NCBI GenBank assembly: GCA_001785865.1
Contig: MFUZ01000006.1
Span: forward strand, 111,307 to 175,306
From: Candidatus Nomurabacteria bacterium RIFCSPLOWO2_01_FULL_41_18
Lineage (GTDB): Bacteria; Patescibacteriota; Minisyncoccia; Phycocordibacterales; UBA9973
Reading direction: 5' to 3'
DNA length: 64,000 nucleotides
In this document: piece by piece, positions 1 to 58,814 of the stretch
How positions within the stretch are numbered: position 1 is the first letter of the stretch
Layout: the number at the start of each line of letters is the position of its first letter
Made by a program: the position numbers and the translations under genes
The notes under the pieces: generated by a model
What the model saw: only the letters and a program-made list of their open reading frames with translations
Database searches by the model: none
Told to the model about the DNA's origin: nothing

Positions 1-1731
1 AAGCTCAAGAATATCGTTCTGGAAGCCTGTATAGCCGTCCACATGGGTTGTCCAACTATCTGTGGTTGAATATTCTGCATCAGCTGGATTTGCTCCATTT
101 TGATTGAGCCAAGTACCGACTGCTTCAGCTATATAAGAAATTCCAGTAATAAGAGGATTTGAATTTACACCTCCTGATACGTTTGAAGGAACGCTTAGAT
201 CATTTTGCACTGCGTCTCCTTTTAGCATCAGGGTCCATCCAGAAAGAGGTTGCTGTTCATCATCTACTTTACACATTGTTACAGTTGAAGTTTGTGGTTC
301 CTCATTTTGAGGAGTTTCTTTTAGAACATTGAATCCGACGCAGTGATAAGTTTCTCCTTCGACAGTATCAATAAATTCCCAGTTGTCGTAATTCAATACG
401 TCACTGCCACAATAAAATTCTGCAGAGACATCTTGAGTTGTATTTTGTCCGGTAAATGGGATGTAATTATCGCTCGGTATCTCACGGAACCAAATTTTTT
501 CTCCGGCAGGAATTTCTTCAGTCTCACCAGAAGAAAAAGTCGTCCAGTCTCCGGAATCGGCATCAGAGTTGCCATCTCCAGGGTTACCTACTCCGTCCTC
601 TGACCATTGGAAATCCCATTCTACTAAATGACAAGTAGGATGAGCTGCAACATATCTATCTGCAGTATTTGATGTAACTTCTTGTAGCGTAGAGTCCCCT
701 GCTCCCCAATTTGGAAGATCTGTTTCGCTGTCGCAAACAATCTTTTTAGCTGAAATTGAGGATTTTTCTGGTCCAGGTTCATTATTACCATCGAACGTAT
801 TTGTCATGGTGCATTTCTTGACCGAACCTGGGGTGAGATCAATCCTATTACCACTATCAAAGTAAGAAAGACCCGAGATAGCCTCGCATTCCCACTCAGC
901 GTCGGCTGTATATCCCGCAGGGCCGCCAATTTCAGATAGAAGATATTTTCCTGCTTTTACGGTCTCCGTAAATCCTCCAGCTCCTTGGTAGACTATCGAA
1001 CTATCATTTTCATAGGTTGCCTTAAGTGTCCATTCGGTAGGATCTGCTTCACCTACCACTTCTTTAACTAAAGTTAGTGTTGCTGTGTCTCCTGTTGGTT
1101 CTGCATTTACTGTAATTTGCACGGTGTCTTGAGCACTGGTTGCTTCTTCGTCGTCAGTGACCACAAGTCCAAATACATAAACCCCTACCTCTAAGGAAGA
1201 TATGCCAGGGCTGGTTGTATTTGTCGGATCAATATTAGTAGGACCTGAAATAAAAGTCCAATTATAATTTGTTATGTAACCGTCTGAGTCGGTACTGCCT
1301 GATCCGACGAGAGTCGTGAAGTCAGTCGGAAGAGTTATTGTCTCATCATCACCAGCATCTGCCACTGGAGGGATATTTTCTTGAGTAATTCCTCCATCAC
1401 AATCTCCGTTTGCCCAGATTTCTTCATTTTCAGGAGTCCAGTTTCTTCCAGAAGAAGATTGTAAAACATTTTCATTATCAAGATAGTGAAATGGTGGAAT
1501 TATGTCATCTTCATGTTGTGCGCCATGACCATTTAAATCGCCAGTTGATGAGACATTTGGAGATATGCTTTCGTAACTCCCATTTCCTTTAGAGTGGCAA
1601 ATTTCTACACTAGTTTGAGCAGTTCCACCAAATGGATCATGATTTGCCAAAGCAACTGACGGACCGACTGTACTAAACAACATTGCAAATATCACAAGAC
1701 TTGAAGCGAACTTAGATAAAATATTTTTCAT
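1..1731 (-). CDS. Secreted protein with signal peptide and PKD-like repeat. Only the N-terminal 577 aa lie in the window; the ORF runs off the window start.
   Basis: Reverse-strand ATG at 1729-1731 gives MKNILSKFASSLVIFAMLFSTVGPSVALA..., a signal peptide. Read by eye, the frame is open to position 1. A segment 'ITNYNWTFISGPTNIDP...GVYVFGLVVTDDEEATSAQDTVQITV' is PKD-like. The ORF is absent from the track because it has no stop inside the window. Confidence 0.5.
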   Translation of the reverse strand, partial: MKNILSKFASSLVIFAMLFSTVGPSVALANHDPFGGTAQTSVEICHSKGNGSYESISPNVSSTGDLNGHGAQHEDDIIPPFHYLDNENVLQSSSGRNWTPENEEIWANGDCDGGITQENIPPVADAGDDETITLPTDFTTLVGSGSTDSDGYITNYNWTFISGPTNIDPTNTTSPGISSLEVGVYVFGLVVTDDEEATSAQDTVQITVNAEPTGDTATLTLVKEVVGEADPTEWTLKATYENDSSIVYQGAGGFTETVKAGKYLLSEIGGPAGYTADAEWECEAISGLSYFDSGNRIDLTPGSVKKCTMTNTFDGNNEPGPEKSSISAKKIVCDSETDLPNWGAGDSTLQEVTSNTADRYVAAHPTCHLVEWDFQWSEDGVGNPGDGNSDADSGDWTTFSSGETEEIPAGEKIWFREIPSDNYIPFTGQNTTQDVSAEFYCGSDVLNYDNWEFIDTVEGETYHCVGFNVLKETPQNEEPQTSTVTMCKVDDEQQPLSGWTLMLKGDAVQNDLSVPSNVSGGVNSNPLITGISYIAEAVGTWLNQNGANPADAEYSTTDSWTTHVDGYTGFQNDILEL

Positions 1732-2128: not shown

Positions 2129-3382
2129 ATGACAACAGCAGAAAAAAAATTAGATAAAGTCGAACAAGAACTTGCCCGTCCCGACATCTCGATCATCAAT
2201 CTTTTTGACCAGCTCATCGAAAAAGCTTACGAAGCGCGGGCATCCGATATCCACGTCGATCCCCTGGTAAATTCCGTACGCATCCGCTTTCGAATCGACG
2301 GCGTGCTCACCGAAGCATATTCATTTCCGAAATCTATAAACAATGAGATAATTTCCCGCGTTAAAATATTGTCCCGACTGCGCACCGACGAGCATCAGGC
2401 CACCCAAGACGGCAGATTCCGCTATATTCTTCCCGAGAACGAGAGGAATCAGAATGGAGAAAAAAATAAATTTATAGATTTTCGCGTATCGATCATGCCT
2501 ACCTACCACGGAGAAAATGCTGTGCTTCGCCTTTTGACGGACAAGAACGAGCAATCCTCTCTGGAAGATCTCGGTTTCAGTGAAATTGATAAGAAAAAAA
2601 TAGAGACGGCGATGAAAAAGACTAACGGCATGATCCTTTCGACTGGGCCGACTGGTAGCGGCAAGACCACTACCATGTACACTCTCATCAAGATGTTGAA
2701 ATCTCCGGAAGTTTCGATAATAACCATCGAGGACCCGATCGAATACGCCGTCGAAGACATAGAGCAGATACAGGTCAATGCCCGAGCCGGTCTTACCTTT
2801 GCAAACGGCCTCCGCTCCATTCTCCGCCAGGACCCGAATATCATCATGGTGGGCGAGATCCGTGATACCGAGACGGCGAGCATAGCCGTGAATACAGCGC
2901 TGACTGGACACCTCCTTCTCTCTACCTTGCATACAAACGATGCTGCGACTACCCTGCCTCGCCTTCTAGATATGGGCATCGAGGAATACCTCGTCGCTTC
3001 CACTGTCTCTCTCGCGATCGGACAGCGTCTGGTGAGAAAAATTTGCAGCCACTGCAAGGAAGAAGTGCAGATGACGCATGCGATGAAAGAAGCCCTCGCG
3101 CAGACTTCGTATACGGCGCTCCTCCTCAATGTCGACGTAGTCTACAAAGGAAAGGGCTGTGAAAAATGCAATAATAGTGGATATCGAGGGAGGATCTGTA
3201 TCAACGAAGTTCTAGTGGCGGACAATGAGATACGTGAAGCCATATTGCGCAGAGCTTCCGCCAATGAAATAAAGAAAATAGCCGTCAAAAACGGGATGAC
3301 TACGATGTTCGAAGATGGCTTTCAAAAAGTGAAGGACGGGTTCACAACTGTCGAAGAGGTATTAAGAGTTATTCATGAATAA
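2129..3382 (+). CDS. pilB: Type IV pilus assembly ATPase PilB/GspE family. Short form that lacks the N1 domain.
   Basis: Walker A motif GPTGSGKTTT. Asp/His boxes are present. A tetracysteine motif (CSHCK...CEKCNNSGYRGR) is typical of PilB/GspE rather than PilT. The N-terminus starts at the 'ASDIHV' N2 region. Confidence 0.85.
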   Translation: MTTAEKKLDKVEQELARPDISIINLFDQLIEKAYEARASDIHVDPLVNSVRIRFRIDGVLTEAYSFPKSINNEIISRVKILSRLRTDEHQATQDGRFRYILPENERNQNGEKNKFIDFRVSIMPTYHGENAVLRLLTDKNEQSSLEDLGFSEIDKKKIETAMKKTNGMILSTGPTGSGKTTTMYTLIKMLKSPEVSIITIEDPIEYAVEDIEQIQVNARAGLTFANGLRSILRQDPNIIMVGEIRDTETASIAVNTALTGHLLLSTLHTNDAATTLPRLLDMGIEEYLVASTVSLAIGQRLVRKICSHCKEEVQMTHAMKEALAQTSYTALLLNVDVVYKGKGCEKCNNSGYRGRICINEVLVADNEIREAILRRASANEIKKIAVKNGMTTMFEDGFQKVKDGFTTVEEVLRVIHE

Positions 3383-4907
3383 AAAAATGGCTACAAAAAC
3401 AACGACAATCAAAAAAACTAGAAAGATGTCGGATGTGACCATGCGTCCGCGGAAAAAGAAAACTCCGGAAGTTGCGGAAGTGGAAATAGTAGTAGAACAA
3501 GAAATCACCACCCCGGCTGCTGCCACTCCTCCTCCACAAGGAGGGGAAGAAAAATTGATAAAATTTGAAACCGAAGTTGTAAATCCGGAAACTCCATTAG
3601 AGCCGACGTTCATCAAAGGTGACGAACTGCCTCAAACGGGCCAAGTCGAAGAAATAAAGAAAGAAACAGCGCCAAGCAATAAATTTATAAATAATATCAA
3701 AAGCTTTTCATTTTCCATGCCTGCGCTTCCCTCAATGCCATCCTTTAAGGTCAAGAAATTTTTCACAAATAAAGAGGAGATAGAAAAAATTGCGCCAAAA
3801 GATACAAAAGCGAGACCGGGTAATAGTTTTTTTACTAGCTTAAAGAGCCTTAATTTCACGCGTCTGTCCATAAAGGATCAGACCTTTTTTGTCAAAAGGC
3901 TGTCTTTTCTCATCAAAGCCGGCATACCGATGGGAGAAAGTCTGGTCATGATCCGCACCCAGACCAAGAAACGGGGTTATGCTTCCATCCTTGACTCCGT
4001 AATCTCGAATGTGATGAACGGACAGAGACTCTCCTCGAGCCTCGCCCGTTTCAAGCACATCTTTGGGGATTTCACGATCAATATTATCGAGTTCGGAGAG
4101 GAGTCCGGCATACTTTCTCAAAATTTGGAGTACATAGCCGACGAATTAAAAAAAAGACAGGCTTTGCGCAAGAAAATAATTAGCGCATCTATATATCCGA
4201 TCATAGTCACGATCGCAACCATCGGCATTGTGATATTTCTAATGGTATTTCTTTTCCCGAAAATCATGCCGATATTTACGAGCCTCAAGTATGACCTTCC
4301 GCTCACTACCAGGATGGTCATAGCAATCAGTAATTTCTTCAGCCAATGGGGCCTTCTCACTTTCGGCATTCTTTTTATTCTTGGCGTAGCCTTCATCATC
4401 ACTCTCAAGAAAAGCCCGACTGTTCACTTCTATTTCGACAAGTTCCTTCTCAAATTGCCGGTAATCGGGAAGATCATACGAGACTATAATATGGCAAACT
4501 TCACCCGCACCATGGGCCTCCTGCTGCGAGGTGGCATCTCGATGAGTGAGGCCTTGCCTATCTCGGCGAAGACTACTCCGAATCTTGTCTATAAAAAAGA
4601 ATTTAAGGCACTCGGGGCTGTGGTCTCTCGTGGGGCGGTAATATCCACTCACTTGAACAAGAATCGCCATCTATTCCCTGACTTGGTCTCACAGATAGTT
4701 TCTGTCGGAGAACACAGCGGAAATTTGTCCAACTCCCTCATTTATCTTTCGGAAATGTATGAAGCAGAAATAGATGACTTCACAAAGAATTTATCCAGCA
4801 TGGTAGAGCCAGTCTTAATGATAATCATGGGTATCCTCGTGGGCTTTATAGCCATTTCCATCATCACGCCTATATACGGCATTACTCAGCACCTAAATGT
4901 AAAATAA
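3375..4907 (+). CDS. pilC: Type IV pilus inner-membrane platform protein PilC/GspF. It carries a Pro/Glu/Lys-rich N-terminal extension of about 150 aa.
   Basis: Two T2SSF-like repeats with TM segments follow a low-complexity N-terminus. There is an 8-nt overlap with pilB. Confidence 0.85.
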   Translation: MNKKMATKTTTIKKTRKMSDVTMRPRKKKTPEVAEVEIVVEQEITTPAAATPPPQGGEEKLIKFETEVVNPETPLEPTFIKGDELPQTGQVEEIKKETAPSNKFINNIKSFSFSMPALPSMPSFKVKKFFTNKEEIEKIAPKDTKARPGNSFFTSLKSLNFTRLSIKDQTFFVKRLSFLIKAGIPMGESLVMIRTQTKKRGYASILDSVISNVMNGQRLSSSLARFKHIFGDFTINIIEFGEESGILSQNLEYIADELKKRQALRKKIISASIYPIIVTIATIGIVIFLMVFLFPKIMPIFTSLKYDLPLTTRMVIAISNFFSQWGLLTFGILFILGVAFIITLKKSPTVHFYFDKFLLKLPVIGKIIRDYNMANFTRTMGLLLRGGISMSEALPISAKTTPNLVYKKEFKALGAVVSRGAVISTHLNKNRHLFPDLVSQIVSVGEHSGNLSNSLIYLSEMYEAEIDDFTKNLSSMVEPVLMIIMGILVGFIAISIITPIYGITQHLNVK

Positions 4908-4911
4908 TCAG

Positions 4912-5388
4912 ATGAGTAAACTATTTAAAACAAACCAAGGCATGACTCTCGTAGAAATAATGGTGGTGATCGGAGTGCTGATGATCATCCTCGCTTTTGG
5001 CATGACAGTAAATTTCAACTCATTCACTTCCAGTACTCTGCAGGCCGAGGAAGCGAAGATAGTCAGCGCCCTCGAACGAGCGCGCAGTCATGCGATGGCG
5101 AATATGTTTGAATCGGAATATGGAGTTTGTTATATTTCACCCAACTATGTTATTTTTCGTGAAAGCGAAGGAACTTGCAACAATTCTGAACCAACTAATG
5201 AGCTTATTCCTGCAAATACAAACTTGTCTACGTTATCAAATTTTTCTACAAACTTTGACGATTCCCACGCTATTATTTTCAATCAGCTCTCAGGTAATAG
5301 AAACACAGTAGATGATACAATTATTATTACTGACGGAATAAAGTCAGAGCCCATAGAAATAAACGATACAGGCAGAATCAATTGGTGA
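4912..5388 (+). CDS. Prepilin-type N-terminal cleavage/methylation domain protein (pseudopilin or minor pilin).
   Basis: N-terminal 'KTNQG/MTLVEIMVVIGVLMIIL' is a class III signal with Glu at +5. Confidence 0.6.
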   Translation: MSKLFKTNQGMTLVEIMVVIGVLMIILAFGMTVNFNSFTSSTLQAEEAKIVSALERARSHAMANMFESEYGVCYISPNYVIFRESEGTCNNSEPTNELIPANTNLSTLSNFSTNFDDSHAIIFNQLSGNRNTVDDTIIITDGIKSEPIEINDTGRINW

Positions 5389-5441: not shown

Positions 5442-6953
5442 ATGAAAAATAAAATTAATTTTAAAAAAATGAAATCAAAAAGTGATAAAGGATTTGCGAC
5501 GATAGAGATCGTCATGGCTTTTGCGGTGCTCATTTTGTGTATCAGCGCAGTCGCTATGGTGACCTTCGGCAATCAGACACTTACGATAGATTCCGAGACC
5601 AACAATGAAGCGATTTCAAAAGCTCAAGCATTGATCGAGAAAGCAAGAGCGGATTCGAGAGAGGATTACGTTTCTGTAAATACTATTCCTTCAACTGTTG
5701 AGGATATTTATACAAAGTTTTTAGAAATAACAGATCTTACTCAATGTAATAAACAAGCTAAAAGCACAGTTTCCTGGACTACGGGATCAAGAAATCTTTC
5801 CACCACTCTCTCTACTTTTCTTAGCGACATTCCTGGAGCGCTAGCACTTGGTGGAGACTGTGATTCTGGTATTACTGCGGATTATGATAATCCTGGAGGT
5901 CTAGTAAGTGAATCTATCGGTGGACAAGGCGCTACAGCTTTGGATGCTGTAAATAACCGTCTATATGTGACTTCAAATAAATTTCCCCCCTCTCATAATA
6001 AAGATTTTTTTGTATATGATTTCAGTTTCAGTCCTCCATCGTCTAGCTCCCTTAGTTTAGTTGCTGAACTCGATTTAAATGAGGGCCTAAATGATGTAGA
6101 TGTGGCCGATAATTATGCGTATGTGGCAAGTGACTCACTTACTGGAGAATTACAGGTCATTGATCTTACTACAATGACTCAAATTCCTGGCGCAACCAGA
6201 CAATTACCAGAAACAAATACAGCTAAAGGAAGAAGAATATTTTTCTATGACAATAAAATCTATATAGGAACGGATTATCTATCATGTCCACCTCCATGTA
6301 CTCCGACACAAAACAGTGAATTTCACATTTATGATGTATCTACTCCAAGTGACCCGAATTGGGAAGGGAGTGTGAATATAAACCACAACGTAAATGATAT
6401 TTTTGTGTCAGGAGATTTTGCTTATCTAGCCACTTCTGATAATAATCACGAACTTATGGTTATAAATATTAATCCTTCTAGTCCTGATTATTTGGAACAT
6501 CCGGACGACACAGGTTTTGGTTATAATGCTTCGGGAAACAATGATGGTTCGAGCATTTATGCATTGGGGAATAAAATTTATCTTGGTAGAAAACAAAACA
6601 ATAATCCATCATCTGCTCATGATTTATTCGTGTTAAATAAGGACAGTGTTCAGGATGGGGCAAGCACGACTGACGGTCTCGTGATCTCTAGGGATCTAGG
6701 TATTTCGAATAACTCATTAGTTACTGGTATTGTTGTGCGAAGCAATTTGGCTTTTGTTGGTCTAGATAACCCAACTATCGGGGTTCTTGTTTTGAATATA
6801 AATACTTTACTGCCGTATTCTTCTTGTGCTGGATACAATTTCCCAGAGAATAGTACTGGGATAGATATGAGCGGAAATTTCATATTTACTTCAAACAGAT
6901 CAAATGATGAAATTCAAGTTATATACGATCAACCTTCAGCATGTACTCCATAA
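5442..6953 (+). CDS. Pilin-like protein: a prepilin N-terminus fused to a YVTN/LVIVD-type beta-propeller repeat domain. Putative pilus-associated adhesin.
   Basis: N-terminal 'KG/FATIEIVMAFAVLIL' with E+5. The C-terminal two-thirds contain about seven repeats of the form [N/D]xxY[VLI]xxxD...L.VI[DN] (NRLYVTSN, NYAYVASD..LQVIDL, DFAYLATSD..LMVININ, SNLAFVGLD..VLVLNIN, GNFIFTSN..IQVIY). Confidence 0.55.
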   Translation: MKNKINFKKMKSKSDKGFATIEIVMAFAVLILCISAVAMVTFGNQTLTIDSETNNEAISKAQALIEKARADSREDYVSVNTIPSTVEDIYTKFLEITDLTQCNKQAKSTVSWTTGSRNLSTTLSTFLSDIPGALALGGDCDSGITADYDNPGGLVSESIGGQGATALDAVNNRLYVTSNKFPPSHNKDFFVYDFSFSPPSSSSLSLVAELDLNEGLNDVDVADNYAYVASDSLTGELQVIDLTTMTQIPGATRQLPETNTAKGRRIFFYDNKIYIGTDYLSCPPPCTPTQNSEFHIYDVSTPSDPNWEGSVNINHNVNDIFVSGDFAYLATSDNNHELMVININPSSPDYLEHPDDTGFGYNASGNNDGSSIYALGNKIYLGRKQNNNPSSAHDLFVLNKDSVQDGASTTDGLVISRDLGISNNSLVTGIVVRSNLAFVGLDNPTIGVLVLNINTLLPYSSCAGYNFPENSTGIDMSGNFIFTSNRSNDEIQVIYDQPSACTP

Positions 6954-7276
6954 AAAACAACAAAAGTGGTTTCACACTCATTGAAGTCATTATCTACATC
7001 GCGCTTTTTTCGTTGCTTCTTGGCACTGCTTTTGTCGCAGCATATCAATTGATAGACGGTTCAGTAAGACTTGGCACAAAAAACACGATTCAGGATGAGG
7101 GTAATTTTATAATGCGCAAAATAAACTGGGCGCTTACGGGTGTTGATCCTTCCACTGTTCCAGTCATAAGCGGATCGGCATGTGAGGAAATTTTGACCAT
7201 ACAAAAAACTGAACCTTCTTATGATCCCACTATCATTAGGTTGAATGACGTAAGCGGTAAAAATACATTGAAATAG
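6941..7276 (+). CDS. Prepilin-type pseudopilin (GspJ/PilW-like), N-terminal part. A second-frame ORF at 7261-7431 appears to continue the protein, so a frameshift is possible.
   Basis: N-terminal 'KSG/FTLIEVIIYIALFSLLLG'. Downstream, a different frame encodes ...ENGGGYSPITTENISVTCLDFSPITGDPSGITATITINGKVFTTTKYIRK*, which ends in an ATGA overlap with the next gene. Confidence 0.5.
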   Translation: MYSIKNNKSGFTLIEVIIYIALFSLLLGTAFVAAYQLIDGSVRLGTKNTIQDEGNFIMRKINWALTGVDPSTVPVISGSACEEILTIQKTEPSYDPTIIRLNDVSGKNTLK

Positions 7277-7427
7277 AGGAAAATGGAGGCGGATATTCCC
7301 CTATTACCACAGAAAATATTTCTGTAACTTGCCTTGATTTTTCACCGATCACAGGAGACCCTTCAGGTATAACAGCTACTATCACCATAAATGGAAAAGT
7401 CTTTACCACCACTAAATATATCCGCAA

Positions 7428-7841
7428 ATGATCCAGCTACAACTTAAAAGCTACAACTTAAAAGCTCAAAAAGGATTCGTCGCTCTTCTTTCTGCCGTAA
7501 TTATTTCCGTAGTTTTGTTGCTAATTGCTACAAATTTGAGTTTGACCGGATTTTACGACCGCTCAAATATTTTGGATGGAGAGCTCAAGCAAGCAAGCTC
7601 TGGTTTTGCCGAAGCGTGTGTGGATACGGCCCTACTTCAGGTGGCAAGTAATTCTGGGATTACTAACGATTCTATAGATGTGGATGGTGTAAGTGGAAAT
7701 GATTGCACTTATTCTATTTCGGGAGGCGGGACCAACATCGAAGCTCAAGGTATTTATAATGGTAAATATTATACAAATCTTGAAGTTGACGTAAACTCCA
7801 CCACACTTGTGGTCAGTCGCTGGGAAGAAGTGCCCAATTAG
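7428..7841 (+). CDS. Pilin-like minor pilin candidate. Non-canonical: no Glu at +5.
   Basis: Leader MIQLQLKSYNLKAQKG/FVALLSAVIISVVLLLIA contains a hydrophobic N-terminal helix. Its position is inside the pilin gene array. Confidence 0.45.
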   Translation: MIQLQLKSYNLKAQKGFVALLSAVIISVVLLLIATNLSLTGFYDRSNILDGELKQASSGFAEACVDTALLQVASNSGITNDSIDVDGVSGNDCTYSISGGGTNIEAQGIYNGKYYTNLEVDVNSTTLVVSRWEEVPN

Positions 7842-7954: not shown

Positions 7955-8416
7955 ATGAATAAAATAAATAAAAAAGGAGGTTTTACATTGATAGAAATTT
8001 TGGTCGTTATAGCTATTATTGCTGTATTGGCGGCAATAGTGCTCGTTGCAATCAATCCTGCAAAAAGATTCCAAGATGCTCGTCAATCACAAAGACAAGC
8101 TAACGTTGAGTCCATCTTGAATGCACTTCAGCAAAGAATGGTTGATAATAAAGGGTTACTTACTGGTTGCCCTACAGTTCCTACAACAGCAACTAACATT
8201 GGTGATGCTGATTATGACCTCGCACCTTGCATAAGTGGATATCTTGCAATACTTCCAGTTGATCCAGAAGTTGGGACATGGACTGATGCAACGGACTATG
8301 ATACAGGATATACAATACAAAGTATTGGTACCACAGGACAAATAACAATTGATGCTCCTGCGGCACTTGCAGATGATACCCCATCCGCCGGTTACGCAAT
8401 TTCAGCCACTCGCTAA
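7955..8416 (+). CDS. Type IV pilin, likely the major pilin (PilA-like).
   Basis: KKGG/FTLIEILVVIAIIAVLAAIVLVAINP is a canonical prepilin leader with E+5 and a hydrophobic helix. Protein length is 153 aa. Confidence 0.7.
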   Translation: MNKINKKGGFTLIEILVVIAIIAVLAAIVLVAINPAKRFQDARQSQRQANVESILNALQQRMVDNKGLLTGCPTVPTTATNIGDADYDLAPCISGYLAILPVDPEVGTWTDATDYDTGYTIQSIGTTGQITIDAPAALADDTPSAGYAISATR

Positions 8417-8478: not shown

Positions 8479-8504
8479 AAAAAGTCCCCTAGGCGGGGGC
8501 TTTT
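8479..8504. terminator. Bidirectional rho-independent terminator between the convergent pilin and PBP genes.
   Basis: aaaaagtcccc-taggc-gggggctttt: a 10-bp stem (one G-U pair) flanked by an A-run and a T-run. Confidence 0.6.
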
Positions 8505-8582: not shown

Positions 8583-10316
8583 CTAGGCAGGGTCAAAATA
8601 CTCGGGAGTATTGACAGACATCCAGTCTAGAAGTTTGCGCATGACGGATGTGGCGTTTACGTTGTTTATGGCTGGGCCGGATTCCATAACGATTGTAAAG
8701 GCAAATTTAGGGTTTTCATATGGGAAGAAGCCGATAACCCAAGAATTGACCCTTTTTTTCGCGACTCCGATCTCGGCAGTACCGGTTTTCGCGACTACTT
8801 TTACATAAGGTACGTTCAAGGATACAGCGGTGCCGTATGTTACTGCTTGTCGCATGCCGTCATGCACGACGTCGTAATATTCTTTTTTTAAGTCTATGGT
8901 TTCAAATTTTTCTTCCATTTTTTTGTCTCCCATAATAAAATGTGGAGTGAGCATCTTGCCAAAGTTCGCGATCGCGGCGGTGGCGCGCACGGCTTCGAGC
9001 GGAGTGACTTGAAATCCGTACTGGCCGATCGAGGTATGGTAAGTGTTTCCGATGCGCCATGGATCGTCCCCGAAATTCTTTAGTTTCCATGCGGGGCTCG
9101 GGATTGTCCCCTTCACTTCTCCAGCGAGGTCGATGCCAGTTTTCTGATCAAAGCCGAAAAGTTTCGCATATTTTTCCAGGTTCAATATACCCAAGCCTTT
9201 TTGATCCTCGAATCCTCCGCCGATCTCATAAAAATATACGTCGGAAGAAACCGCGAGAGCCTCGGCCATATTTGTCCAGCCGTTTACTCTCCAGTCTTTA
9301 AAAACCGTTTTTTGGTCAGGGAAATAAGGATTTGGAATAGAGATGGATCCGGTCGACAAGATTTTCTTTGAAGGATCGATCACGTTTTCCGCCAAAGCTC
9401 CAAGAGAAAAGAAGGGCTTTATGATCGAACCCGGTGTGTAGAGCCCTGAAACAGTCCGGTTTAGGAAAAATTTTCTCTCATCATGGATGTATTCATTTAT
9501 TTGTTTGGTGTCTTTGCCGAGCGATAAAATTTCTGAATCGTATTCCGGAAAACTTGTCGAAGATATTATCTCTCCATTCTGGACATCCATGATGATTCCA
9601 GCTCCGCCTGTAAATCCGTTTGTTTCCGATAATTCTTGGATGGATGAAAACAATTTCGCTTGTATTCTGGAGTCCAGGCTAGTTACCAGATCGTCTCCCT
9701 CCTTTGGTGCATTCACGATATTGAATGAATGGATGGTTCCCTTTGCGTCGGTTTCTATCATTTTTGATCCGTTTTCTCCTTTTATTTTTTCATGATATTC
9801 TTTTTCCAAGCCATTGATGCCCTCAAATTCAGTTTTCCAATAATTTCCCTCCGCATCCTTCGCGGGATAGCTCACATAGCCTAATACATGTGAAAATCCA
9901 GGAGACAAATAGGTGCGGATATACGGCAGATCCTCTTTAGGGTCAGGACTAGCAAGTGAAATTTCTACCAGCGAATCCGTCTTCTGATTCCAGGCGAGCT
10001 CTTTCATGTTTCGGTCATAAATTATTCCTCTTTCCGTAAAGATGTTAATGCTTTTCAATGTATTTTCTTCGCTTCGCTCCCTATACATATCTCCGTTTTC
10101 GATCTGCAAATAGGAGAGGCGTATAAGAAATACTAAAGTAATTAAAAGAAAAGAAGCGCCAAGCAAATTAATGGTAATTCTTGGGATTGGCTGTTCTATC
10201 CTGCCTTCAAATTGTTGGCGGTCAAAATTTTGTAAGTTCTTGGAATCAAGGAAGATCTCATCCGGATCCACCAACGCATTTATATTTCTTTTTTTTCTAA
10301 ATTTACGGAAAAACAT
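8583..10316 (-). CDS. Penicillin-binding protein 2 / FtsI-type peptidoglycan D,D-transpeptidase.
   Basis: N-terminal TM, dimerisation domain, and the transpeptidase motifs SxxK (GSIIKPF) and KTG (AKTGTAE). Confidence 0.85.
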   Translation of the reverse strand: MFFRKFRKKRNINALVDPDEIFLDSKNLQNFDRQQFEGRIEQPIPRITINLLGASFLLITLVFLIRLSYLQIENGDMYRERSEENTLKSINIFTERGIIYDRNMKELAWNQKTDSLVEISLASPDPKEDLPYIRTYLSPGFSHVLGYVSYPAKDAEGNYWKTEFEGINGLEKEYHEKIKGENGSKMIETDAKGTIHSFNIVNAPKEGDDLVTSLDSRIQAKLFSSIQELSETNGFTGGAGIIMDVQNGEIISSTSFPEYDSEILSLGKDTKQINEYIHDERKFFLNRTVSGLYTPGSIIKPFFSLGALAENVIDPSKKILSTGSISIPNPYFPDQKTVFKDWRVNGWTNMAEALAVSSDVYFYEIGGGFEDQKGLGILNLEKYAKLFGFDQKTGIDLAGEVKGTIPSPAWKLKNFGDDPWRIGNTYHTSIGQYGFQVTPLEAVRATAAIANFGKMLTPHFIMGDKKMEEKFETIDLKKEYYDVVHDGMRQAVTYGTAVSLNVPYVKVVAKTGTAEIGVAKKRVNSWVIGFFPYENPKFAFTIVMESGPAINNVNATSVMRKLLDWMSVNTPEYFDPA

Positions 10317-39149: not shown

Positions 39150-42100
39150 TTATTTAGAAAAATATGCAAACGCCGCTAAAATGGAAGCAATCGAACCGAT
39201 ACCGAATTCGCTCTGCTCAACAATTGCGCTCAAGTCAAAATATCTTCTCAGGATGGGATACGCATCCTGCTCGATGGACGGATAAACATTATTATTGTTT
39301 TGTATAGTGGCAGCATAATCATTACCATTTGAAGCATGATAGCTAGGGCCAAAGACTGGAATACCCGGAACCGGTAAGGTGGCTCCACTGTTCTGTCTGA
39401 GCCAAATAGAAGTAAGATGAAGAGGATTCTTTGGAGGCATGGATCCGATGCCGGTAATATAGCTCTGATTTTGCGGATTTGCTCCGAGCTCGACATCAAA
39501 ATTTATTTTCGCCGCTTCAAGATATTTCTCATCACCAAGAATTATATTTGCAAGGATAAGATGAAAAGACCGAGAAGCGCTGTGAGCAAATTGGCCCCAG
39601 CTGATATACGAAGGCACATCCAGACGATATCCGACACGGTAAGGGTTGCTATATGTCCAATTATATTCTTCATCAGCTAGGCTTCTGTATTCGCTCTTAA
39701 TATTTGTCACTATGGCAGGATCAGTCGGATATTTTGTCGTCAGATAAGCAAACGAAGCCTGGGAATTGTGATATACGAAATTATTATAAATATTGTAAAA
39801 CGGGGAAGTTTGCTGCCAATATGTCTTGAATGCCTGTGCGTACTCAACGTTTCCTGTTGCTTTATACAGTTCAGCCGCCGCCCAAGCCCGATTATCAACA
39901 TCAGAATATGGGCAGGTAGAGCCGGGCACTTGATTATCGGAGCAATTAGAAAGAGCCTTGTCTTGATAATCTCCGCCACCAATCCCTAATTTTCTGACAT
40001 CAATTCCGTTTGCCGGCAGTGGCGTCGGGTGCTTATTGAGAAAATCCCAAGCCTTGACTGCTTTCACTAAAAGATTGTCTGCATATCCGGGATACTTCGT
40101 CTCGAAGGTGGCATTTTTTTTAAAGACTTGGGAAGCCTGCGCTAGAACCGCCGCATAGACTGCCGTGGTGTGAGTGGACACTGGCGCGAGATACCTAGTT
40201 TGGATATCGTAAGGGCTCTTTTCCCACTGCTGTGAGGTAAGTCGATCGAATACTCCGCCATCTTTGGTCTGCATTTTTTGAAACCAGTCGATTTCATATT
40301 TGATTTCATCAAGAATATCGGGAATACCATTATTTTTTTCAGGAATATCCGCTTGATTGTCACTGAATTTCTGTGGATACAGCTCATATGCGAGCAGTAA
40401 TTCATTTACCGGCGCCGAAGCTGGTAAGATATATTTTCCATAGTCACCGGCATCGTACCATCCGCCAGTCATATCAAACTTCGTCCCGAGTGGATAATCT
40501 ATTTTCGATACCGGAAGCGGATTATCGGTGCTCAATACATAGACGCTCGGATGGAGAACTGCCGCTCGGTCGCTCGAGAGAGTCCCTGCCGGACGCGACC
40601 ACTCTCCATAATTAATCGGAACATCCGCGCGTGCGGCATAGTAGAAATTCATAAGTTTTTTGGTCACGTCCTTAAATATGTCTGAACCGATTTTGAACGA
40701 ATATGATCGTCCGAAGCCTGGAACAGATACATAGTAAGATCCGGCCGATGTTATAGTCGAAAAATCACAGTTATAAATAATGTTTCCACTGCGCGAAATA
40801 TCGTTCGCTCTAAATAGCGCTGGAAATTCTGCAACAAGGGTATTCGAGGCGGCATTCATTACCTTACATTTTGCTGGCACACCAGTAAGTGAACCCGCAT
40901 CTCCGATGTAATTCCCGATGTATGCGAATTTTGGCGATGCTGGCAGATAGCCGACTTGATTTACCTGAACCGAACCTGTGATGACAGCATCGGAGTAAGT
41001 GAATGGTAGTATTTTAGGGGTAGAAAAATTATTACCGAAAAGATCGGGAATATTTTTGACTGTCAGCGTATAATTGCGCCCCTCTACCAGCGGGGTATCG
41101 AAGACCAGGTACAGATTTGATTCGAAAGTGGGAGCCTTGGCTAAACCATACGATCCTCCAGTCGAAGCCTCGAAGCCATTCACATGGAATTCTCGGCCTA
41201 TTTGCACTGGTGATCGGCCTGAAGAAAAATTTGAGTCCCCGCTTCCCGTCAAAACATAGTTGGAAGCATTCACTACTCCATTTATATCATAGCGATCCTT
41301 GGTGGTAAGTTTTATAACTTTATTTGAAATCGGTTGGAGATTTAATACAGTGTTAGGACTTGTTTTTATAGCATATATATCATCAATTTGAAATGAATAT
41401 GTGGGTGTAACTCCTGAGGCGGAGCTAAACCATAAATTCTCCATACTCGAAAGATCAAAACCGCCTGAGACTTTTAGCGCACTTACAGGAATGCGAAGCA
41501 TGCGATAAGAAGCTCCTAGTGTGCCACCGCCTGTAATATAGTCTTCCATTTTGACTGAAGCACTGGTGTTGGGCCATCCATATATAAGAAAACGGCCAGT
41601 GGGAATTGCCGGTAGTGTCGTTCCGGGATTTGGAACAACTTTTACCATCATTTGGATAAAATCATACTGTGCTAAACTTTTTCTGTACGCTGTCGGAAGA
41701 TTTGCTAAACTCAAATTACCTGCATTGTATTGACTAGGTGTTGCTTTCAATGAATACGTGCCAGAACTTGCTCCTTCTGAAACAACAGTTCCATATGTAA
41801 TTCCTGTCGAACGTTCAATAGCAGATTCTCCAGTCCAAATTTTTAATTGTTTTTCTAAATCAATTCTAATGGGATCAGGCGGTATTGGAGGAGTTATTAT
41901 AATTGAAGGAGGAACTATTACAACAGGAGGCACAACGACCACAGGAGGAGTAACGACTACAGGTGGTGTAATGACGACAGGAGGCGGAGGAGGGACAGTC
42001 GCTCCTGTAGGATGAAAAACAATATCATCTACATAATAGACTGAATTTGACTTACTTAATGAAAATCGCATACCATCAACTTTTGACAAATTCCAAGATG

Positions 42101-43139
42101 TAGTTTTTAAAGCGCTTACTGGAATCGTAACTTGTTTCCAATTTGTATTTAGAGTGCCACCTTGGATATAAGAATTTAAATTTACAGTGGAACTTTCTGC
42201 ATAGCCACTATTCCCTGCCCATGTCCAAAATGTGACCGTAACAGGATCTGTATTTGCTGTCGCACTTCGAATCATAAATGTTAGAGTCTCATAAAGTCCG
42301 AGATCTGTACGCTGACGATTGCCACAGTAAATTTTTAGCGAAGGAGTATGCCAAGGATCTGGTGTGAGTTTGAGTGAGGGTGAATCATTTATGCCTTGAT
42401 TACTAACTTGGGCTAAATATTCAGAACAGGATGATGAAAGAGGAGAAGAACTGCCATTAAAAATAGTCAATGTGGACGTGGGGGTAGTAGGTACTACGAC
42501 AGGAGGAGTAACGGCTTGTTCAATTTTGGGTTGGAAAATAATGTTGTCTATATAATAAATAGAATTGGAGGCACTTACAGAAAAACTGACAGCATCGGCA
42601 TTGGAAAGATCCCAAGAAGATATTTTTAAAGCGGATATTGGTATGGTTACTTGCTTCCAATCAGTACCAATTGAACCACCTTGAATATATTCATTGATGG
42701 AGACAGTTTTGCTATTTGCGTAACCATTTGGTCCAGCAAATGTCCAGAACGAGACATTTAGAGGGTCTGTGGTTGCCGTGGCACTTCGTATCATAAAAGT
42801 AAAATTCTCATATGCACCGAGATCTTTTCGTGGATTGTTCATACAATAAACTTTGAGCACTGGGGCATGCCACTTGTCTGGAATCAATTTAAGGCTGGTG
42901 GAGCCATTTACACCAGTTCCCTGTTCTTGTGTTGCATATTCGTAACACGAAGGACTTGGTGCAGGATTTGCATCTCCATCAAATAAAGTAAATGGAATCT
43001 GTGCAACCGAGGCTGTATAAGGAGAGCCATCTTTGAACCCTATATTATTCATTAATTTTGTATTAGTTATAACAACAAGAAAAATGAGAATAATAATTAT
43101 TATTCCGAAAGCAATATAGTATCGTAAATTTTTTTTCAT
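39150..43139 (-). CDS. Large secreted multi-domain glycoside hydrolase, GH9-like. Architecture is a signal anchor, then two tandem modules of about 170 aa, a Pro/Val-rich linker, a third module, an Ig-like domain, and a C-terminal (alpha/alpha)6 catalytic domain.
   Basis: N-terminal MKKNLRYYIAFGIIIIILIFLVV. Two roughly 50% identical repeats (…LKLIPDKWHAPVLKVYC… and …LKLTPDPWHTPSLKIYC…). A PPVV linker. A GH9 hallmark 'FDMTGGWYDAGDYGKY' and C-terminal acidic catalytic motifs. Confidence 0.8.
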   Translation of the reverse strand: MKKNLRYYIAFGIIIIILIFLVVITNTKLMNNIGFKDGSPYTASVAQIPFTLFDGDANPAPSPSCYEYATQEQGTGVNGSTSLKLIPDKWHAPVLKVYCMNNPRKDLGAYENFTFMIRSATATTDPLNVSFWTFAGPNGYANSKTVSINEYIQGGSIGTDWKQVTIPISALKISSWDLSNADAVSFSVSASNSIYYIDNIIFQPKIEQAVTPPVVVPTTPTSTLTIFNGSSSPLSSSCSEYLAQVSNQGINDSPSLKLTPDPWHTPSLKIYCGNRQRTDLGLYETLTFMIRSATANTDPVTVTFWTWAGNSGYAESSTVNLNSYIQGGTLNTNWKQVTIPVSALKTTSWNLSKVDGMRFSLSKSNSVYYVDDIVFHPTGATVPPPPPVVITPPVVVTPPVVVVPPVVIVPPSIIITPPIPPDPIRIDLEKQLKIWTGESAIERSTGITYGTVVSEGASSGTYSLKATPSQYNAGNLSLANLPTAYRKSLAQYDFIQMMVKVVPNPGTTLPAIPTGRFLIYGWPNTSASVKMEDYITGGGTLGASYRMLRIPVSALKVSGGFDLSSMENLWFSSASGVTPTYSFQIDDIYAIKTSPNTVLNLQPISNKVIKLTTKDRYDINGVVNASNYVLTGSGDSNFSSGRSPVQIGREFHVNGFEASTGGSYGLAKAPTFESNLYLVFDTPLVEGRNYTLTVKNIPDLFGNNFSTPKILPFTYSDAVITGSVQVNQVGYLPASPKFAYIGNYIGDAGSLTGVPAKCKVMNAASNTLVAEFPALFRANDISRSGNIIYNCDFSTITSAGSYYVSVPGFGRSYSFKIGSDIFKDVTKKLMNFYYAARADVPINYGEWSRPAGTLSSDRAAVLHPSVYVLSTDNPLPVSKIDYPLGTKFDMTGGWYDAGDYGKYILPASAPVNELLLAYELYPQKFSDNQADIPEKNNGIPDILDEIKYEIDWFQKMQTKDGGVFDRLTSQQWEKSPYDIQTRYLAPVSTHTTAVYAAVLAQASQVFKKNATFETKYPGYADNLLVKAVKAWDFLNKHPTPLPANGIDVRKLGIGGGDYQDKALSNCSDNQVPGSTCPYSDVDNRAWAAAELYKATGNVEYAQAFKTYWQQTSPFYNIYNNFVYHNSQASFAYLTTKYPTDPAIVTNIKSEYRSLADEEYNWTYSNPYRVGYRLDVPSYISWGQFAHSASRSFHLILANIILGDEKYLEAAKINFDVELGANPQNQSYITGIGSMPPKNPLHLTSIWLRQNSGATLPVPGIPVFGPSYHASNGNDYAATIQNNNNVYPSIEQDAYPILRRYFDLSAIVEQSEFGIGSIASILAAFAYFSK
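41880..41995. repeat. In-frame tandem DNA repeats encoding the (T/V)PPVV linker of the GH9-like protein.
   Basis: Repeated ggaggNacNacNacagg units were seen directly in the sequence. Confidence 0.5.
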
Positions 43140-57173: not shown

Positions 57174-57248
57174 CAAAAGCCTGCCCCGTACTGAGCTCTG
57201 CTCTAGTACGGGGTTATCCACATCCGCCAAAGGCGGACAAGCTTGCAT

Positions 57249-57266
57249 TATCTCATATATGAGATA
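57249..57266. promoter_or_regulatory. Perfect 18-bp palindrome (TATCTCATATATGAGATA). Candidate operator for the downstream HTH-MurA protein.
   Basis: Seen directly in the sequence. It ends 13 nt upstream of the proposed ATG at 57279 and overlaps a TATAT -10-like element. Confidence 0.4.
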
Positions 57267-57278
57267 TACTATGGAAAT

Positions 57279-58814
57279 ATGAAAAAAACGTCAACAAAGG
57301 AAACAGAGACCGAGCAGGAAAAGATCGGCTTTTTTATAAAAGAGCTTCGTGAACATCGTGGGATGACGCAGGAACAGTTTGCTAAAGCACTCAATACTTC
57401 TCAAAGCTCAATCCCCCGTATGGAAAAGGGTGAGCAAAATTTTACTACGGAATTACTTCTTAAAATAAGTAACGTTCTAGACCACAAAATAGTTTCTTTA
57501 AATGATTCAATTGATTTTGAAGTCACTGGAGGAAAAAAATTAAGCGGAACCATAAAAACCAATTTTTCAAAAAACGGCTCAGTTGGACTTTTGTGCGCTT
57601 CGCTTGTAAATAGCGGAGTGACAACATTGCACGGCATTGCTCGCATTGAAGAAGTGTATAGAGTAATTGAAATTCTGGAAAGTATCGGAGTCGTTGTTAA
57701 ATGGCTTAACCAAAACACTCTCACAATTACTCCTCCTAAAAAATTTAGTTTGGACAATGTAAATACAGAATCTGCGATTAAAACTCGCTCAGTTATTATG
57801 CTTGTCGGACCTCTTATTCACAAATTGTCAGCTTTCATCATTCCTCACCCCCACGGATGCAACCTTGGTAAACGCACTATTGCAGCACATATTTTTGCAT
57901 TAGAAAAACTCGGGGTAAAAATAAAAACCACAGCAAAAAATTACGATGTTTCTGCAAGAAAACTCAAACCGGGATACATAGTAATGTATGAATCCGGAGA
58001 TACTGCTTGCGAAAATGTTTTAATGGCTTCTGCCCTGATTCATGGCGTGACAAGAATAAGTTTTGCTAGTGCAAATTATATGGTGCAAGAAGTTTGTTTT
58101 TTCCTTGAGGCTTTGGGTGTGAAAATAGAAGGAATCGGCACTTGCAACCTCACTGTTCATGGAGTAAAAGAAATAAACAAAGACATAGAATATTGGAACA
58201 GCGAAGACCCGATAGAATCCATGATGTTTATTTCTGCGGGAATTATTACTGACTCAAAACTCACCATAACTAGAGCTCCTATAGATTTCTTGGCTCTGGA
58301 ATTGGAAAAACTAAAGAGAATGAATTTAAAATATAAAATTTCAAAAGTTTATAATTCATTCAACGGCCGAACTAGACTCACTGATATAGAAATTTTCCCA
58401 AGCAAACTGAAAGCGTTAAAAGACAAACTTCATTCAAATCCTTATCCGGGAATAAATATAGACAATTTGCCATTTTTTGTACCGATTGCCATCCGGGCCA
58501 AAGGACAAACGATGGTTCATGATTGGGTATATGAAAACCGAGCCATATATTTGACCGAATTAAATCGCCTAGGAGCGGACATAACCCTCGCAGACCCTCA
58601 TCGTCTCTATATTACAGGCGGTACTCCCCTAAAAGGAGCCCAAATCGTCTGCCCTCCTGCGTTGCGACCATCTATGGTTATTCTTATTTCAATGCTTGGT
58701 GCTAGTGGCACATCAATACTCCGAAATGTCTATATGATAAATCGAGGCTATGAAGAAATTGTAGAAAGATTAAATTCCATCGGCGCGGATATTAAAATAA
58801 TAAAGGGGAATTAA
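57279..58814 (+). CDS. murA: XRE-family HTH domain fused to UDP-N-acetylglucosamine 1-carboxyvinyltransferase (MurA). The start is set at MKKTSTKE.
   Basis: The N-terminal about 70 aa, 'IGFFIKELREHRGMTQEQFAKALNTSQSSIPRMEKGEQNFTTELLLKISNVL', form a Cro/C1-type HTH. The rest aligns end-to-end with MurA (…FEVTGGKKLSGTIK…, active-site Cys in PHPHGCNLGKR, …RGYEEIVERLNSIGADIKI…). Confidence 0.7.
   Translation: MKKTSTKETETEQEKIGFFIKELREHRGMTQEQFAKALNTSQSSIPRMEKGEQNFTTELLLKISNVLDHKIVSLNDSIDFEVTGGKKLSGTIKTNFSKNGSVGLLCASLVNSGVTTLHGIARIEEVYRVIEILESIGVVVKWLNQNTLTITPPKKFSLDNVNTESAIKTRSVIMLVGPLIHKLSAFIIPHPHGCNLGKRTIAAHIFALEKLGVKIKTTAKNYDVSARKLKPGYIVMYESGDTACENVLMASALIHGVTRISFASANYMVQEVCFFLEALGVKIEGIGTCNLTVHGVKEINKDIEYWNSEDPIESMMFISAGIITDSKLTITRAPIDFLALELEKLKRMNLKYKISKVYNSFNGRTRLTDIEIFPSKLKALKDKLHSNPYPGINIDNLPFFVPIAIRAKGQTMVHDWVYENRAIYLTELNRLGADITLADPHRLYITGGTPLKGAQIVCPPALRPSMVILISMLGASGTSILRNVYMINRGYEEIVERLNSIGADIKIIKGN

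What the first reader, a model, noticed from the sequence alone, without database searches (positions are those of the whole stretch)
5442..6953. Prepilin-leader protein fused to a YVTN/LVIVD beta-propeller, encoded inside the pilus operon
The N-terminus carries a canonical class III prepilin signal (KG/FATIE, Glu+5). The C-terminal roughly 350 aa carry about seven YVTN-type beta-propeller blades. Known tip adhesins such as PilY1 have a propeller but no pilin N-terminus, and the propeller domain is well above the usual pilin size. A pilin-anchored propeller would put a ligand-binding domain directly into the fibre, for example as a tip-located adhesin for host or episymbiont attachment.
Basis: partly seen in the sequence, partly recalled or inferred. 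Interest (0 to 1): 0.6.

Follow-up and report, generated by a model that had tools for sequence, protein, structure and literature searches.

The report
Minor pilin carrying a beta-propeller head
This gene in an uncultivated ultrasmall (Patescibacteria/CPR) bacterium encodes a type IV pilus subunit whose pilin stalk is fused to a seven-bladed beta-propeller, most likely a sticky head at the pilus tip; the design is real and widespread in this group, but it belongs to the already described class of "modular pilins".

Summary

The gene sits in a fixed order: PilB/GspE, PilC/GspF, H-like pilin, this gene, J-like pilin, K-like pilin (no Glu5), major pilin. That order holds in all 15 distinct related loci, apart from a few undetected pilins at contig ends or low identity. 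The loci are Parcubacteria MAGs: Nomura-, Taylor-, Lloyd-bacteria. The protein is therefore the "I/PilV-slot" core minor pilin with a propeller grafted on.

The best explanation is that the tip-priming complex presents a non-DNA-binding adhesin. The propeller is strongly acidic and carries three co-varying Cys pairs.

It is not new in kind. Raynaud et al. 2021 defined modular pilins and list 30 pilin+LVIVD (IPR013211) proteins. TM7x PilX2 is a propeller-bearing minor pilin needed for host binding. What is added here is the I-slot assignment, the strict synteny, and a family far larger than InterPro shows. No ligand, processing or tip location has been shown.

The parts
5442..6953 (+). The finding: modular minor pilin, 503 aa. 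Leader 1-17 (or 10-17), cleavage predicted after G17. Alpha1 helix spans residues 20-74, the 4-stranded pilin head 82-128, the conserved linker ALGGDC…DYDNP 133-151, and the 7-bladed LVIVD beta-propeller 151-496. The C-terminal tail carries C501.
5490..5879 (+). Pilin module (residues 17-146): G|FATIE motif, alpha1 helix and beta-sheet, and C102, which co-varies with C140.
5892..6950 (+). Seven-bladed LVIVD beta-propeller module (residues 151-503). It is acidic (net charge -27, pI 4.16). Cys pairs C282/C286 and C462/C501.
2129..3382 (+). Assembly ATPase (PilB/GspE family), 417 aa, first gene of the operon.
   Evidence: Pfam T2SSE 1e-121; NCBIfam GspE/PilB
3375..4907 (+). Platform protein (PilC/GspF family), 510 aa, with an N-terminal extension of about 135 aa that is absent from relatives.
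   Evidence: Pfam T2SSF 9e-53. Relatives are 370-394 aa.
4912..5388 (+). GspH/FimU-like minor pilin, 158 aa (…NQG|MTLVE).
   Evidence: Pfam N_methyl and GspH; NCBIfam GspH/ComGD-type hits
6941..7430 (+). GspJ/PilW-like minor pilin (…KSG|FTLIE). Its start overlaps the stop of the propeller pilin by 13 nt. Here it is interrupted by a frameshift at an A5 run (7259-7263): the annotated ORF ends at 7276 (111 aa). Adding one A restores 162 aa.
7428..7841 (+). GspK/PilX/ComGG-like minor pilin, 137 aa (…QKG|FVALLS). It lacks Glu5, as do its homologues in seven of the ten other loci examined.
7955..8416 (+). Probable major pilin, 153 aa (…KGG|FTLIEILVVIAII), GspG-like, last gene of the operon.
   Evidence: Pfam N_methyl 9e-9; NCBIfam GspG 2e-9
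8480..8504 (+). Intrinsic-terminator-like hairpin (10-bp stem followed by a T-rich tail) closing the operon. A promoter-like site lies at 2038-2067, upstream of pilB.

Best explanation
The gene encodes the GspI/PilV-class core minor pilin of a Parcubacteria type IV filament, with a rigidly attached seven-bladed LVIVD beta-propeller grafted onto its C-terminus.

Proposed mechanism:
1. The precursor inserts into the membrane through its hydrophobic alpha1N segment.
2. A prepilin peptidase cleaves after Gly17.
3. The mature protein joins the H-, J- and K-like minor pilins to form the priming complex on the PilC platform.
4. PilB then polymerises the major pilin beneath this complex.
5. The complex, and with it the propeller, ends up at the distal tip of the fibre.

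At the tip, the acidic, disulfide-stabilised propeller acts as the ligand-binding head. The ligand is most likely a surface glycan or protein of a host or partner cell, or of a substrate, rather than DNA. In effect, one polypeptide combines what PilV plus PilY1 do in Pseudomonas-type pili.

Shown here: the motif, both folds, the I-class similarity, the operon position, and conservation.
Inferred: processing, incorporation into the tip complex, and the adhesive role.
For: Pilin identity:
- Gly-1 is present in 51/53 and Glu5 in 52/53 homologues.
- The AF2 model shows a 55-residue alpha1 helix plus a 4-stranded sheet.
- Weak PilV and XpsI profile hits cover residues 16-110.

Operon slot:
- The order PilB-PilC-H-[this gene]-J-K-major is conserved in all 15 distinct related loci, down to 24-27% identity of the protein. 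A few individual pilins were not detected at contig ends or at low identity.
- No separate small I-type pilin exists in any of these operons.
- The K-like pilin lacks Glu5, like GspK/PilX.
- The stop of this gene overlaps the J-like start, which suggests translational coupling.

Propeller:
- Pfam LVIVD scores above its cut-off.

Extracellular, rigid head:
- Three Cys pairs are gained and lost together: C102/C140 (43 both, 0 single, 10 neither), C282/C286 (16/0/37), and C462/C501 (28/2/23).
- The linker motif ALGGDC…DWDNP is among the most conserved parts of the protein.

Ligand is probably not DNA:
- The propeller has net charge -27 and pI 4.2. Across the family the median is -18 and the charge is never positive.

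Precedents:
- Modular pilins present a grafted module at the tip (PilB of S. sanguinis, PMC8179133).
- TM7x PilX2, a minor pilin with a 7-bladed propeller, is needed for efficient host binding but not for filament extrusion (PMC11623550).
Against: - No experimental data exist for this family.
- No prepilin peptidase gene was found in the 64-kb window. The test was a motif scan only.
- Pfam N_methyl does not reach E<=0.1 on the window protein itself.
- The PilV and XpsI sequence hits are far below the curated cut-offs.
- The J-like partner gene is frameshifted in this genome, so this particular operon might be impaired or phase-variable.
- The propeller matches only generic 7-bladed propellers, so the fold gives no clue to the ligand.
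- No retraction ATPase lies in the operon.
Confidence: 0.6

Rival explanations
1. The propeller pilin is a priming or regulatory component rather than an adhesin. It nucleates assembly or acts as a plug or stop at the filament end, as the PilY1 C-terminal propeller regulates extension and retraction. It has no specific external ligand.
For: It occupies a core minor-pilin slot that is never empty in the 15 distinct loci. Core minor pilins (GspI/J/K; FimU-PilVWX) are known primers of assembly (established knowledge; also discussed in PMC11623550). The best conserved blades are internal (blades 3, 4 and 7).
Against: A priming role needs only the pilin module. Keeping a 350-aa disulfide-stabilised propeller across roughly 24-70% sequence divergence suggests it has its own function. 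In TM7x, the propeller pilin PilX2 is dispensable for filament extrusion but needed for binding. Priming and adhesion are not mutually exclusive.
Confidence: 0.15
2. The filament is a competence (Com-like) pilus or T2SS-like pseudopilus, and the propeller captures DNA or another nutrient polymer for uptake. This would resemble ComZ in Thermus, or the ssDNA-binding propeller YncE.
Against: The propeller is strongly acidic in every family member examined (net -4 to -47, pI 4.05-5.6), which is unfavourable for DNA binding. YncE scores no better than dozens of unrelated WD40 proteins.
Confidence: 0.1
3. The protein is not polymerised at all. The pilin-like N-terminus serves only as a membrane anchor (a 'choice of anchor') for a cell-surface LVIVD propeller, which may be an enzyme.
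For: LVIVD propellers are common cell-surface modules attached to many kinds of anchor. There is a weak hit to the 'choice-of-anchor B' model (29.5 bits). Thousands of non-pilin LVIVD proteins, some of them giant, match the profile. One LVIVD-like propeller in the PDB is a hydrolase (5hrm; weak, repeat-motif-only match).
Against: A plain anchor would not need a near-invariant Gly-1 and Glu5, a GspI-like head, or a fixed position between the H- and J-type minor pilins. Only one propeller residue (E293) is invariant, and H295 is not conserved, so no catalytic constellation is evident.
Confidence: 0.1

Closest known systems
Modular type IV pilins (Raynaud et al. 2021, PNAS; PilB and PilC of Streptococcus sanguinis)
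   Same: [quoted passage not shown] Dataset S1 of that paper already lists 30 proteins with the pilin motif followed by 1-13 LVIVD repeats (IPR013211). The text mentions an 860-aa Falkowbacteria example, 'of unknown function'.
   Different: PilB carries a vWA module and PilC a lectin module, both joined by a short loop. Here the module is a 7-bladed propeller attached through a highly conserved, disulfide-pinned linker. The carrier is the I/PilV-slot core minor pilin of a conserved H-I-J-K operon. The LVIVD pilins have never been analysed beyond that listing.
PilX2 of Nanosynbacter lyticus TM7x (Saccharibacteria T4P-2; Grossman et al., PMC11623550)
   Same: [quoted passage not shown] Its deletion halves host binding without abolishing the filament.
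   Different: The PilX2 propeller is made of RCC1 repeats. PilX2 has a non-canonical signal that is not predicted as a PilD substrate, and it is named for the X position. The present protein has LVIVD repeats, no RCC1 hit, a canonical G|FxxxE signal, and a GspI-like head.
GspI / EpsI / XcpV / PilV core minor (pseudo)pilins and the GspI-J-K tip complex
   Same: They are the closest structural matches of the pilin module. The gene order H-I-J-K is the same. The K-type partner lacks Glu5.
   Different: GspI-type proteins are the smallest pilins (about 100-130 aa) with no extra domain. In the T2SS the bulky extra domain sits on GspK. Here K is small (137 aa) and I carries the 350-aa module. The sequence models for PilV and GspI are not met (16-17 bits against cut-offs of 52-150).
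PilY1 / PilC tip adhesin of type IVa pili
   Same: A beta-propeller associated with the minor-pilin tip complex. The functional analogy is a propeller at the pilus tip.

Membership tests
Type IV pilin / class III signal peptide proteins | Short basic leader ending in Gly(-1), followed by about 20 hydrophobic residues with Glu at +5 | tested here: met
   The sequence is …SDKG|FATIEIVMAFAVLILCISAVAM. Gly is present in 51/53 and Glu in 52/53 homologues.
Type IV pilin / class III signal peptide proteins | Match to the curated N-terminal methylation motif model (Pfam PF07963 / TIGR02532) | tested here: not met
   No hit at E<=0.1 for the window protein. 13 of 30 homologous N-terminal modules do hit (best 3.6e-7). 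The short model is insensitive here, so the motif was judged by eye and from the alignment.
Type IV pilin / class III signal peptide proteins | Pilin fold: extended alpha1 helix of about 53 residues packed on an antiparallel beta-sheet | tested here: met
Type IV pilin / class III signal peptide proteins | Cleavage and N-methylation by a prepilin peptidase (PilD/A24) and incorporation into a filament | not testable with these tools
   No A24-like ORF was found in the window by motif search. The rest of the genome was not available.
Type IV pilin / class III signal peptide proteins | Encoded together with the assembly ATPase, the platform protein and other pilins | tested here: met
GspI/PilV-class core minor pilin | Structural similarity of the head domain to GspI/EpsI/XcpV | tested here: met
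GspI/PilV-class core minor pilin | Curated sequence models (TIGR02523 PilV, NF047828 XpsI, TIGR01707 GspI) met above cut-off | tested here: not met
   PilV scores 16.8 bits against a cut-off of 52.2. XpsI scores 16.0 against 150. There is no GspI hit.
GspI/PilV-class core minor pilin | Second position in an H-I-J-K minor pilin gene block, with no other I-type gene present | tested here: met
   The gene order is identical in the 15 distinct related loci.
GspI/PilV-class core minor pilin | Forms a complex with the J and K minor pilins | not testable with these tools
   No multimer prediction or experiment was available.
Modular pilins (sensu Raynaud et al. 2021) | A pilin module plus an additional domain that is not specific to type IV pilus biology | tested here: met
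   The pilin module plus a Pfam LVIVD propeller. The same architecture is listed in Dataset S1. IPR013211 is the LVIVD repeat.
LVIVD-repeat beta-propeller (PF08309) | Pfam model met above the gathering score, and a propeller fold | tested here: met
YVTN-repeat propeller (TIGR02276) | Match to the YVTN repeat model | tested here: not met
   No hit at E<=0.1 in NCBIfam. Only fold-level similarity to YncE was found.
PilY1/PilC adhesins | C-terminal PilY1-type propeller domain (PF05567/IPR008707), and not itself a pilin | tested here: not met
   No Pfam hit to that family. In addition, the protein is itself a pilin.
Choice-of-anchor B family (TIGR04312) | Model met above cut-off | tested here: not met
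   29.5 bits against a cut-off of 100. This shows only a shared repeat type.

The most novel reading that the evidence does not exclude
Across the Parcubacteria (Paceibacteria) branch of the CPR, the universal I/PilV-slot core minor pilin may have permanently absorbed the tip-adhesin function. It would do so by carrying an LVIVD propeller, and in some lineages arrays of propellers up to about 2,000 aa. This propeller would then be the primary host-recognition determinant of these uncultivated episymbionts. That would make host range readable from one fast-evolving gene.
Probability: 0.3. Interest if true: 0.6.

Novelty: new member of a known kind. Interest (0 to 1): 0.4.

Why it matters
Patescibacteria make up a large share of bacterial diversity. 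Nearly all cultivated members live attached to host cells, and type IV pili are their best candidate organ for finding hosts.

This family gives a concrete, structurally confident and very widespread candidate for the tip adhesin in the uncultivated Parcubacteria. At least 76 additional clusters at 50% identity appear among the best 150 profile hits. A soluble, disulfide-bonded propeller of this kind could be expressed and screened against glycan arrays or candidate host cells.

The result also shows that motif-based censuses of modular pilins undercount this architecture, because the N_methyl model misses most members. Conceptually, however, it extends a known principle (modular pilins; TM7x PilX2) and does not establish a new one.

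Tried and rejected
- A sequence search of the full-length and N-terminal profiles against PDB chains gave only marginal hits: Geopilin domain 1 (E 0.014-0.03) and the haloalkylphosphorus hydrolase 5hrm (E 0.026). The latter aligns only over the generic 'vIDvsdPxxP' repeat motif and is no evidence for catalysis.
- Foldseek against the PDB returned only generic WD40-type propellers. The afdb50 library was unavailable, so I could not look for annotated AlphaFold DB twins.
- The search for related loci with the 53-sequence alignment failed because no conserved stretch was available. It worked with the 15 closest sequences.
- A search for a prepilin peptidase in the window by the GxGDxK motif and by TM-rich ORFs found none.
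- Rfam and tRNA scans found only two tRNAs and nothing bearing on the finding.
- I compared domain-wise divergence between the pilin head and the propeller to look for a hypervariable head. There was no clear difference (31% against 32% median pairwise identity).
- I considered a DNA-receptor role and down-weighted it on charge.
- I considered membership of the PilY1 family and rejected it, because there was no domain hit.

Full report
**1. What is in the sequence**

The ORF 5442..6953 (+) is present and encodes 503 aa. Its N-terminus reads MKNKINFKKMKSKSDKG|FATIEIVMAFAVLILCISAVAM. This is a lysine-rich leader, a Gly, then Phe-x-x-x-Glu and about 21 hydrophobic residues, which is the class III (prepilin) signal.

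Gene callers on identical public contigs start at Met10, giving an 8-aa leader (P0001). A GAGG immediately precedes ATG 5442, so a 17-aa leader is equally possible. Homologues have leaders of mostly 9-13 residues, up to 29.

Pfam's short N_methyl model does not reach E<=0.1 on this protein. It does hit 13 of 30 homologous N-terminal modules. In a 53-sequence alignment, Gly(-1) is present in 51 and Glu5 in 52.

The C-terminal two thirds hit Pfam LVIVD above the gathering score (40.2 against 20.2 bits). They contain seven recognisable repeats. The YVTN model is not hit, so the blades are LVIVD-type.

**2. Structure**

AlphaFold2 with the family alignment gives a confident model, with mean pLDDT 90.2 and pTM 0.86. 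Its elements are:
- a continuous helix at residues 20-74, the length of a pilin alpha1;
- a four-stranded antiparallel sheet at residues 82-128;
- a short helix and a conserved linker;
- about 25 strands between residues 151 and 496.

**3. Genomic context**

The gene is the fourth of a seven-gene + strand block:

| Coordinates | Gene |
|---|---|
| 2129-3382 | PilB/GspE ATPase |
| 3375-4907 | PilC/GspF platform |
| 4912-5388 | GspH-like pilin |
| 5442-6953 | the propeller pilin |
| 6941-~7430 | GspJ-like pilin |
| 7428-7841 | pilin-like protein lacking Glu5 (G\|FVALLS), the hallmark of GspK/PilX/ComGG |
| 7955-8416 | GspG-like probable major pilin |

A promoter-like site lies at 2038-2067, and a strong terminator hairpin at 8480-8504 brackets the block.

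The same order is found in every related locus I could fetch: 15 distinct loci, with the propeller pilin at 24-72% identity. Where a pilin was not detected, the locus ended there or the identity was low. The loci come from Candidatus Nomurabacteria, Taylorbacteria, Lloydbacteria, 'Minisyncoccia' and unclassified Patescibacteria MAGs. Named protein homologues include Zambryskibacteria and Pacebacteria. None of these operons has a separate small I-type pilin.

In seven of the ten loci where I read the upstream ORF, the K-like protein shows the cleavage motif and lacks Glu5. In the other three the ORF extended upstream and the motif was not in view.

The protein is thus best described as the I/PilV-slot core minor pilin of the H-I-J-K set, carrying a grafted propeller.

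**4. Features bearing on function**

- Six of the seven cysteines form three pairs that are gained and lost together across the family. The counts are C102/C140 (43 both, 0 single, 10 neither), C282/C286 (16/0/37) and C462/C501 (28/2/23). This is the signature of disulfides, and hence of an extracytoplasmic, stable domain.
- C102-C140 would pin the linker to the pilin sheet. Together with the very conserved ALGGDC…DWDNP linker and the high pTM, this argues for a rigid head rather than a domain on a tether.
- The propeller is strongly acidic: net charge -27 and pI 4.16 here, and a family median of -18 that is never positive. This argues against a DNA receptor.
- Only E293 is invariant in the propeller, so no catalytic constellation is evident.
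- Between relatives whose PilB is 85% identical, the propeller pilin is only 40% identical, and the other pilins 48-57%. It is therefore the fastest-evolving operon member, as expected for an exposed recognition surface. The pilin head and the propeller diverge at similar rates.

**5. Mechanism proposed**

The steps are as follows. All are inferred except the motif, the folds and the synteny.
1. The precursor inserts into the membrane.
2. A prepilin peptidase, encoded elsewhere, cleaves after Gly17.
3. The mature protein assembles with the H, J and K minor pilins into the priming complex.
4. The major pilin polymerises underneath, which places the propeller at the filament tip as an adhesive head.

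In T2SS tip complexes the bulky extra domain sits on GspK. Here K is minimal (137 aa), and I carries the bulk.

Rivals considered are a purely priming or regulatory role, DNA or nutrient capture, and a non-polymerised anchor for a surface enzyme. They are set out with their evidence in the rivals section.

**6. Comparison with what is known**

Raynaud et al. 2021 (PMC8179133) defined 'modular pilins' and showed that PilB(vWA) of S. sanguinis is a tip adhesin. Their Dataset S1 lists IPR012902 followed by 1-13 copies of IPR013211, in 8+8+7+4+1+1+1 = 30 proteins. IPR013211 is the LVIVD repeat (PMC10210494). Their text cites an 860-aa Falkowbacteria pilin with 12 such repeats 'of unknown function'.

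Grossman et al. (PMC11623550) showed that PilX2 of TM7x promotes host binding and is not needed for filament extrusion. PilX2 is a minor pilin with a heptabladed RCC1 propeller and a non-canonical signal.

Both the idea of a pilin-anchored propeller adhesin in Patescibacteria and the pilin+LVIVD architecture are therefore already in the literature. I found no paper describing this family itself.

**7. What this analysis adds**

(a) The carrier is the I/PilV-slot core minor pilin.

(b) Synteny is strict across Parcubacteria.

(c) The family is much larger than InterPro suggests. A profile search of 1.84 billion representatives returned 76 further clusters of about 440-620 aa among the best 150 hits, most matched as a single stretch over nearly the whole profile. 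Of these, 58 match a strict prepilin regular expression. The search also returned pilin-headed multi-propeller proteins of 790-2,000 aa.

(d) The protein has predicted disulfides and an acidic surface.

**8. Verdict**

I rate it a new member of a known kind, with moderate interest (0.4). It is a good, testable candidate for the pilus tip adhesin of uncultivated Parcubacteria.

Noticed in passing
window 6941-7430 (A5 run at 7259-7263): The GspJ-like minor pilin gene directly downstream is frameshifted. The ORF stops at 7276 (111 aa). Adding one A to the A5 run restores a 162-aa protein ending TKYIRK*, whose stop overlaps the next gene, exactly as in the intact 157-160-aa homologues (L001, L017). 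The identical frameshifted sequence occurs in three other public assemblies (L006-L008). It is therefore either fixed in this population, phase-variable, or a shared homopolymer artefact.
   Followed up: partly
L011 2520-3143; L015 8153-8815; protein P0012: In some relatives, a GIY-YIG-type nuclease sequence (…YTYILLSKKDGRLYTGAT…) lies in frame upstream of, or fused to, the K-like pilin gene. One homologue of the propeller pilin (P0012, 604 aa) carries a Pfam GIY-YIG domain (PF01541). This suggests a small mobile nuclease gene that repeatedly inserts into this operon.
   Followed up: no
proteins P0103-P0166; P0104, P0109, P0162, P0210, P0235: The propeller profile matches giant proteins of up to 6,901 aa with 9-19 propeller-length stretches. 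Some large proteins (790-1,998 aa) begin with a prepilin motif followed by several propellers, so they are pilins with propeller arrays.
   Followed up: partly
window 3375-4907: The PilC/GspF platform protein is 510 aa, against 370-394 aa in related loci. The extra ~135 N-terminal residues are a low-complexity stretch rich in Lys, Thr, Pro and Glu. Gene callers on identical contigs disagree on its start (506 or 488 aa).
   Followed up: no
window 1-1731 (-), and L001/L004/L006 upstream regions: A very large secreted surface protein is encoded divergently upstream of pilB. It is 1,241 aa in L006, with PKD, CLIPPER and SpaA-like domains, and it is cut by the window edge. A CAP-domain protein and an S41 peptidase follow it. 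This neighbourhood recurs in several related loci.
   Followed up: no
window 39150-43139 (-): A 1,329-aa membrane-anchored protein with CBM30, a CelD_N Ig-like domain and a GH9 cellulase domain. This is a large surface glycoside hydrolase in a small CPR genome.
   Followed up: no
window 57243-58814 (+): An N-terminal XRE-type HTH domain (residues about 29-80) is fused to a full-length EPSP-synthase/MurA-family enzyme domain. This is an unusual combination of regulator and enzyme.
   Followed up: no
window 8583-10316 (-): A PBP2/MrdA-type transpeptidase converges on the end of the pilus operon. This pairing (pilus operon followed by a convergent PBP2) is conserved in L001, L004, L006, L008 and L017.
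   Followed up: no
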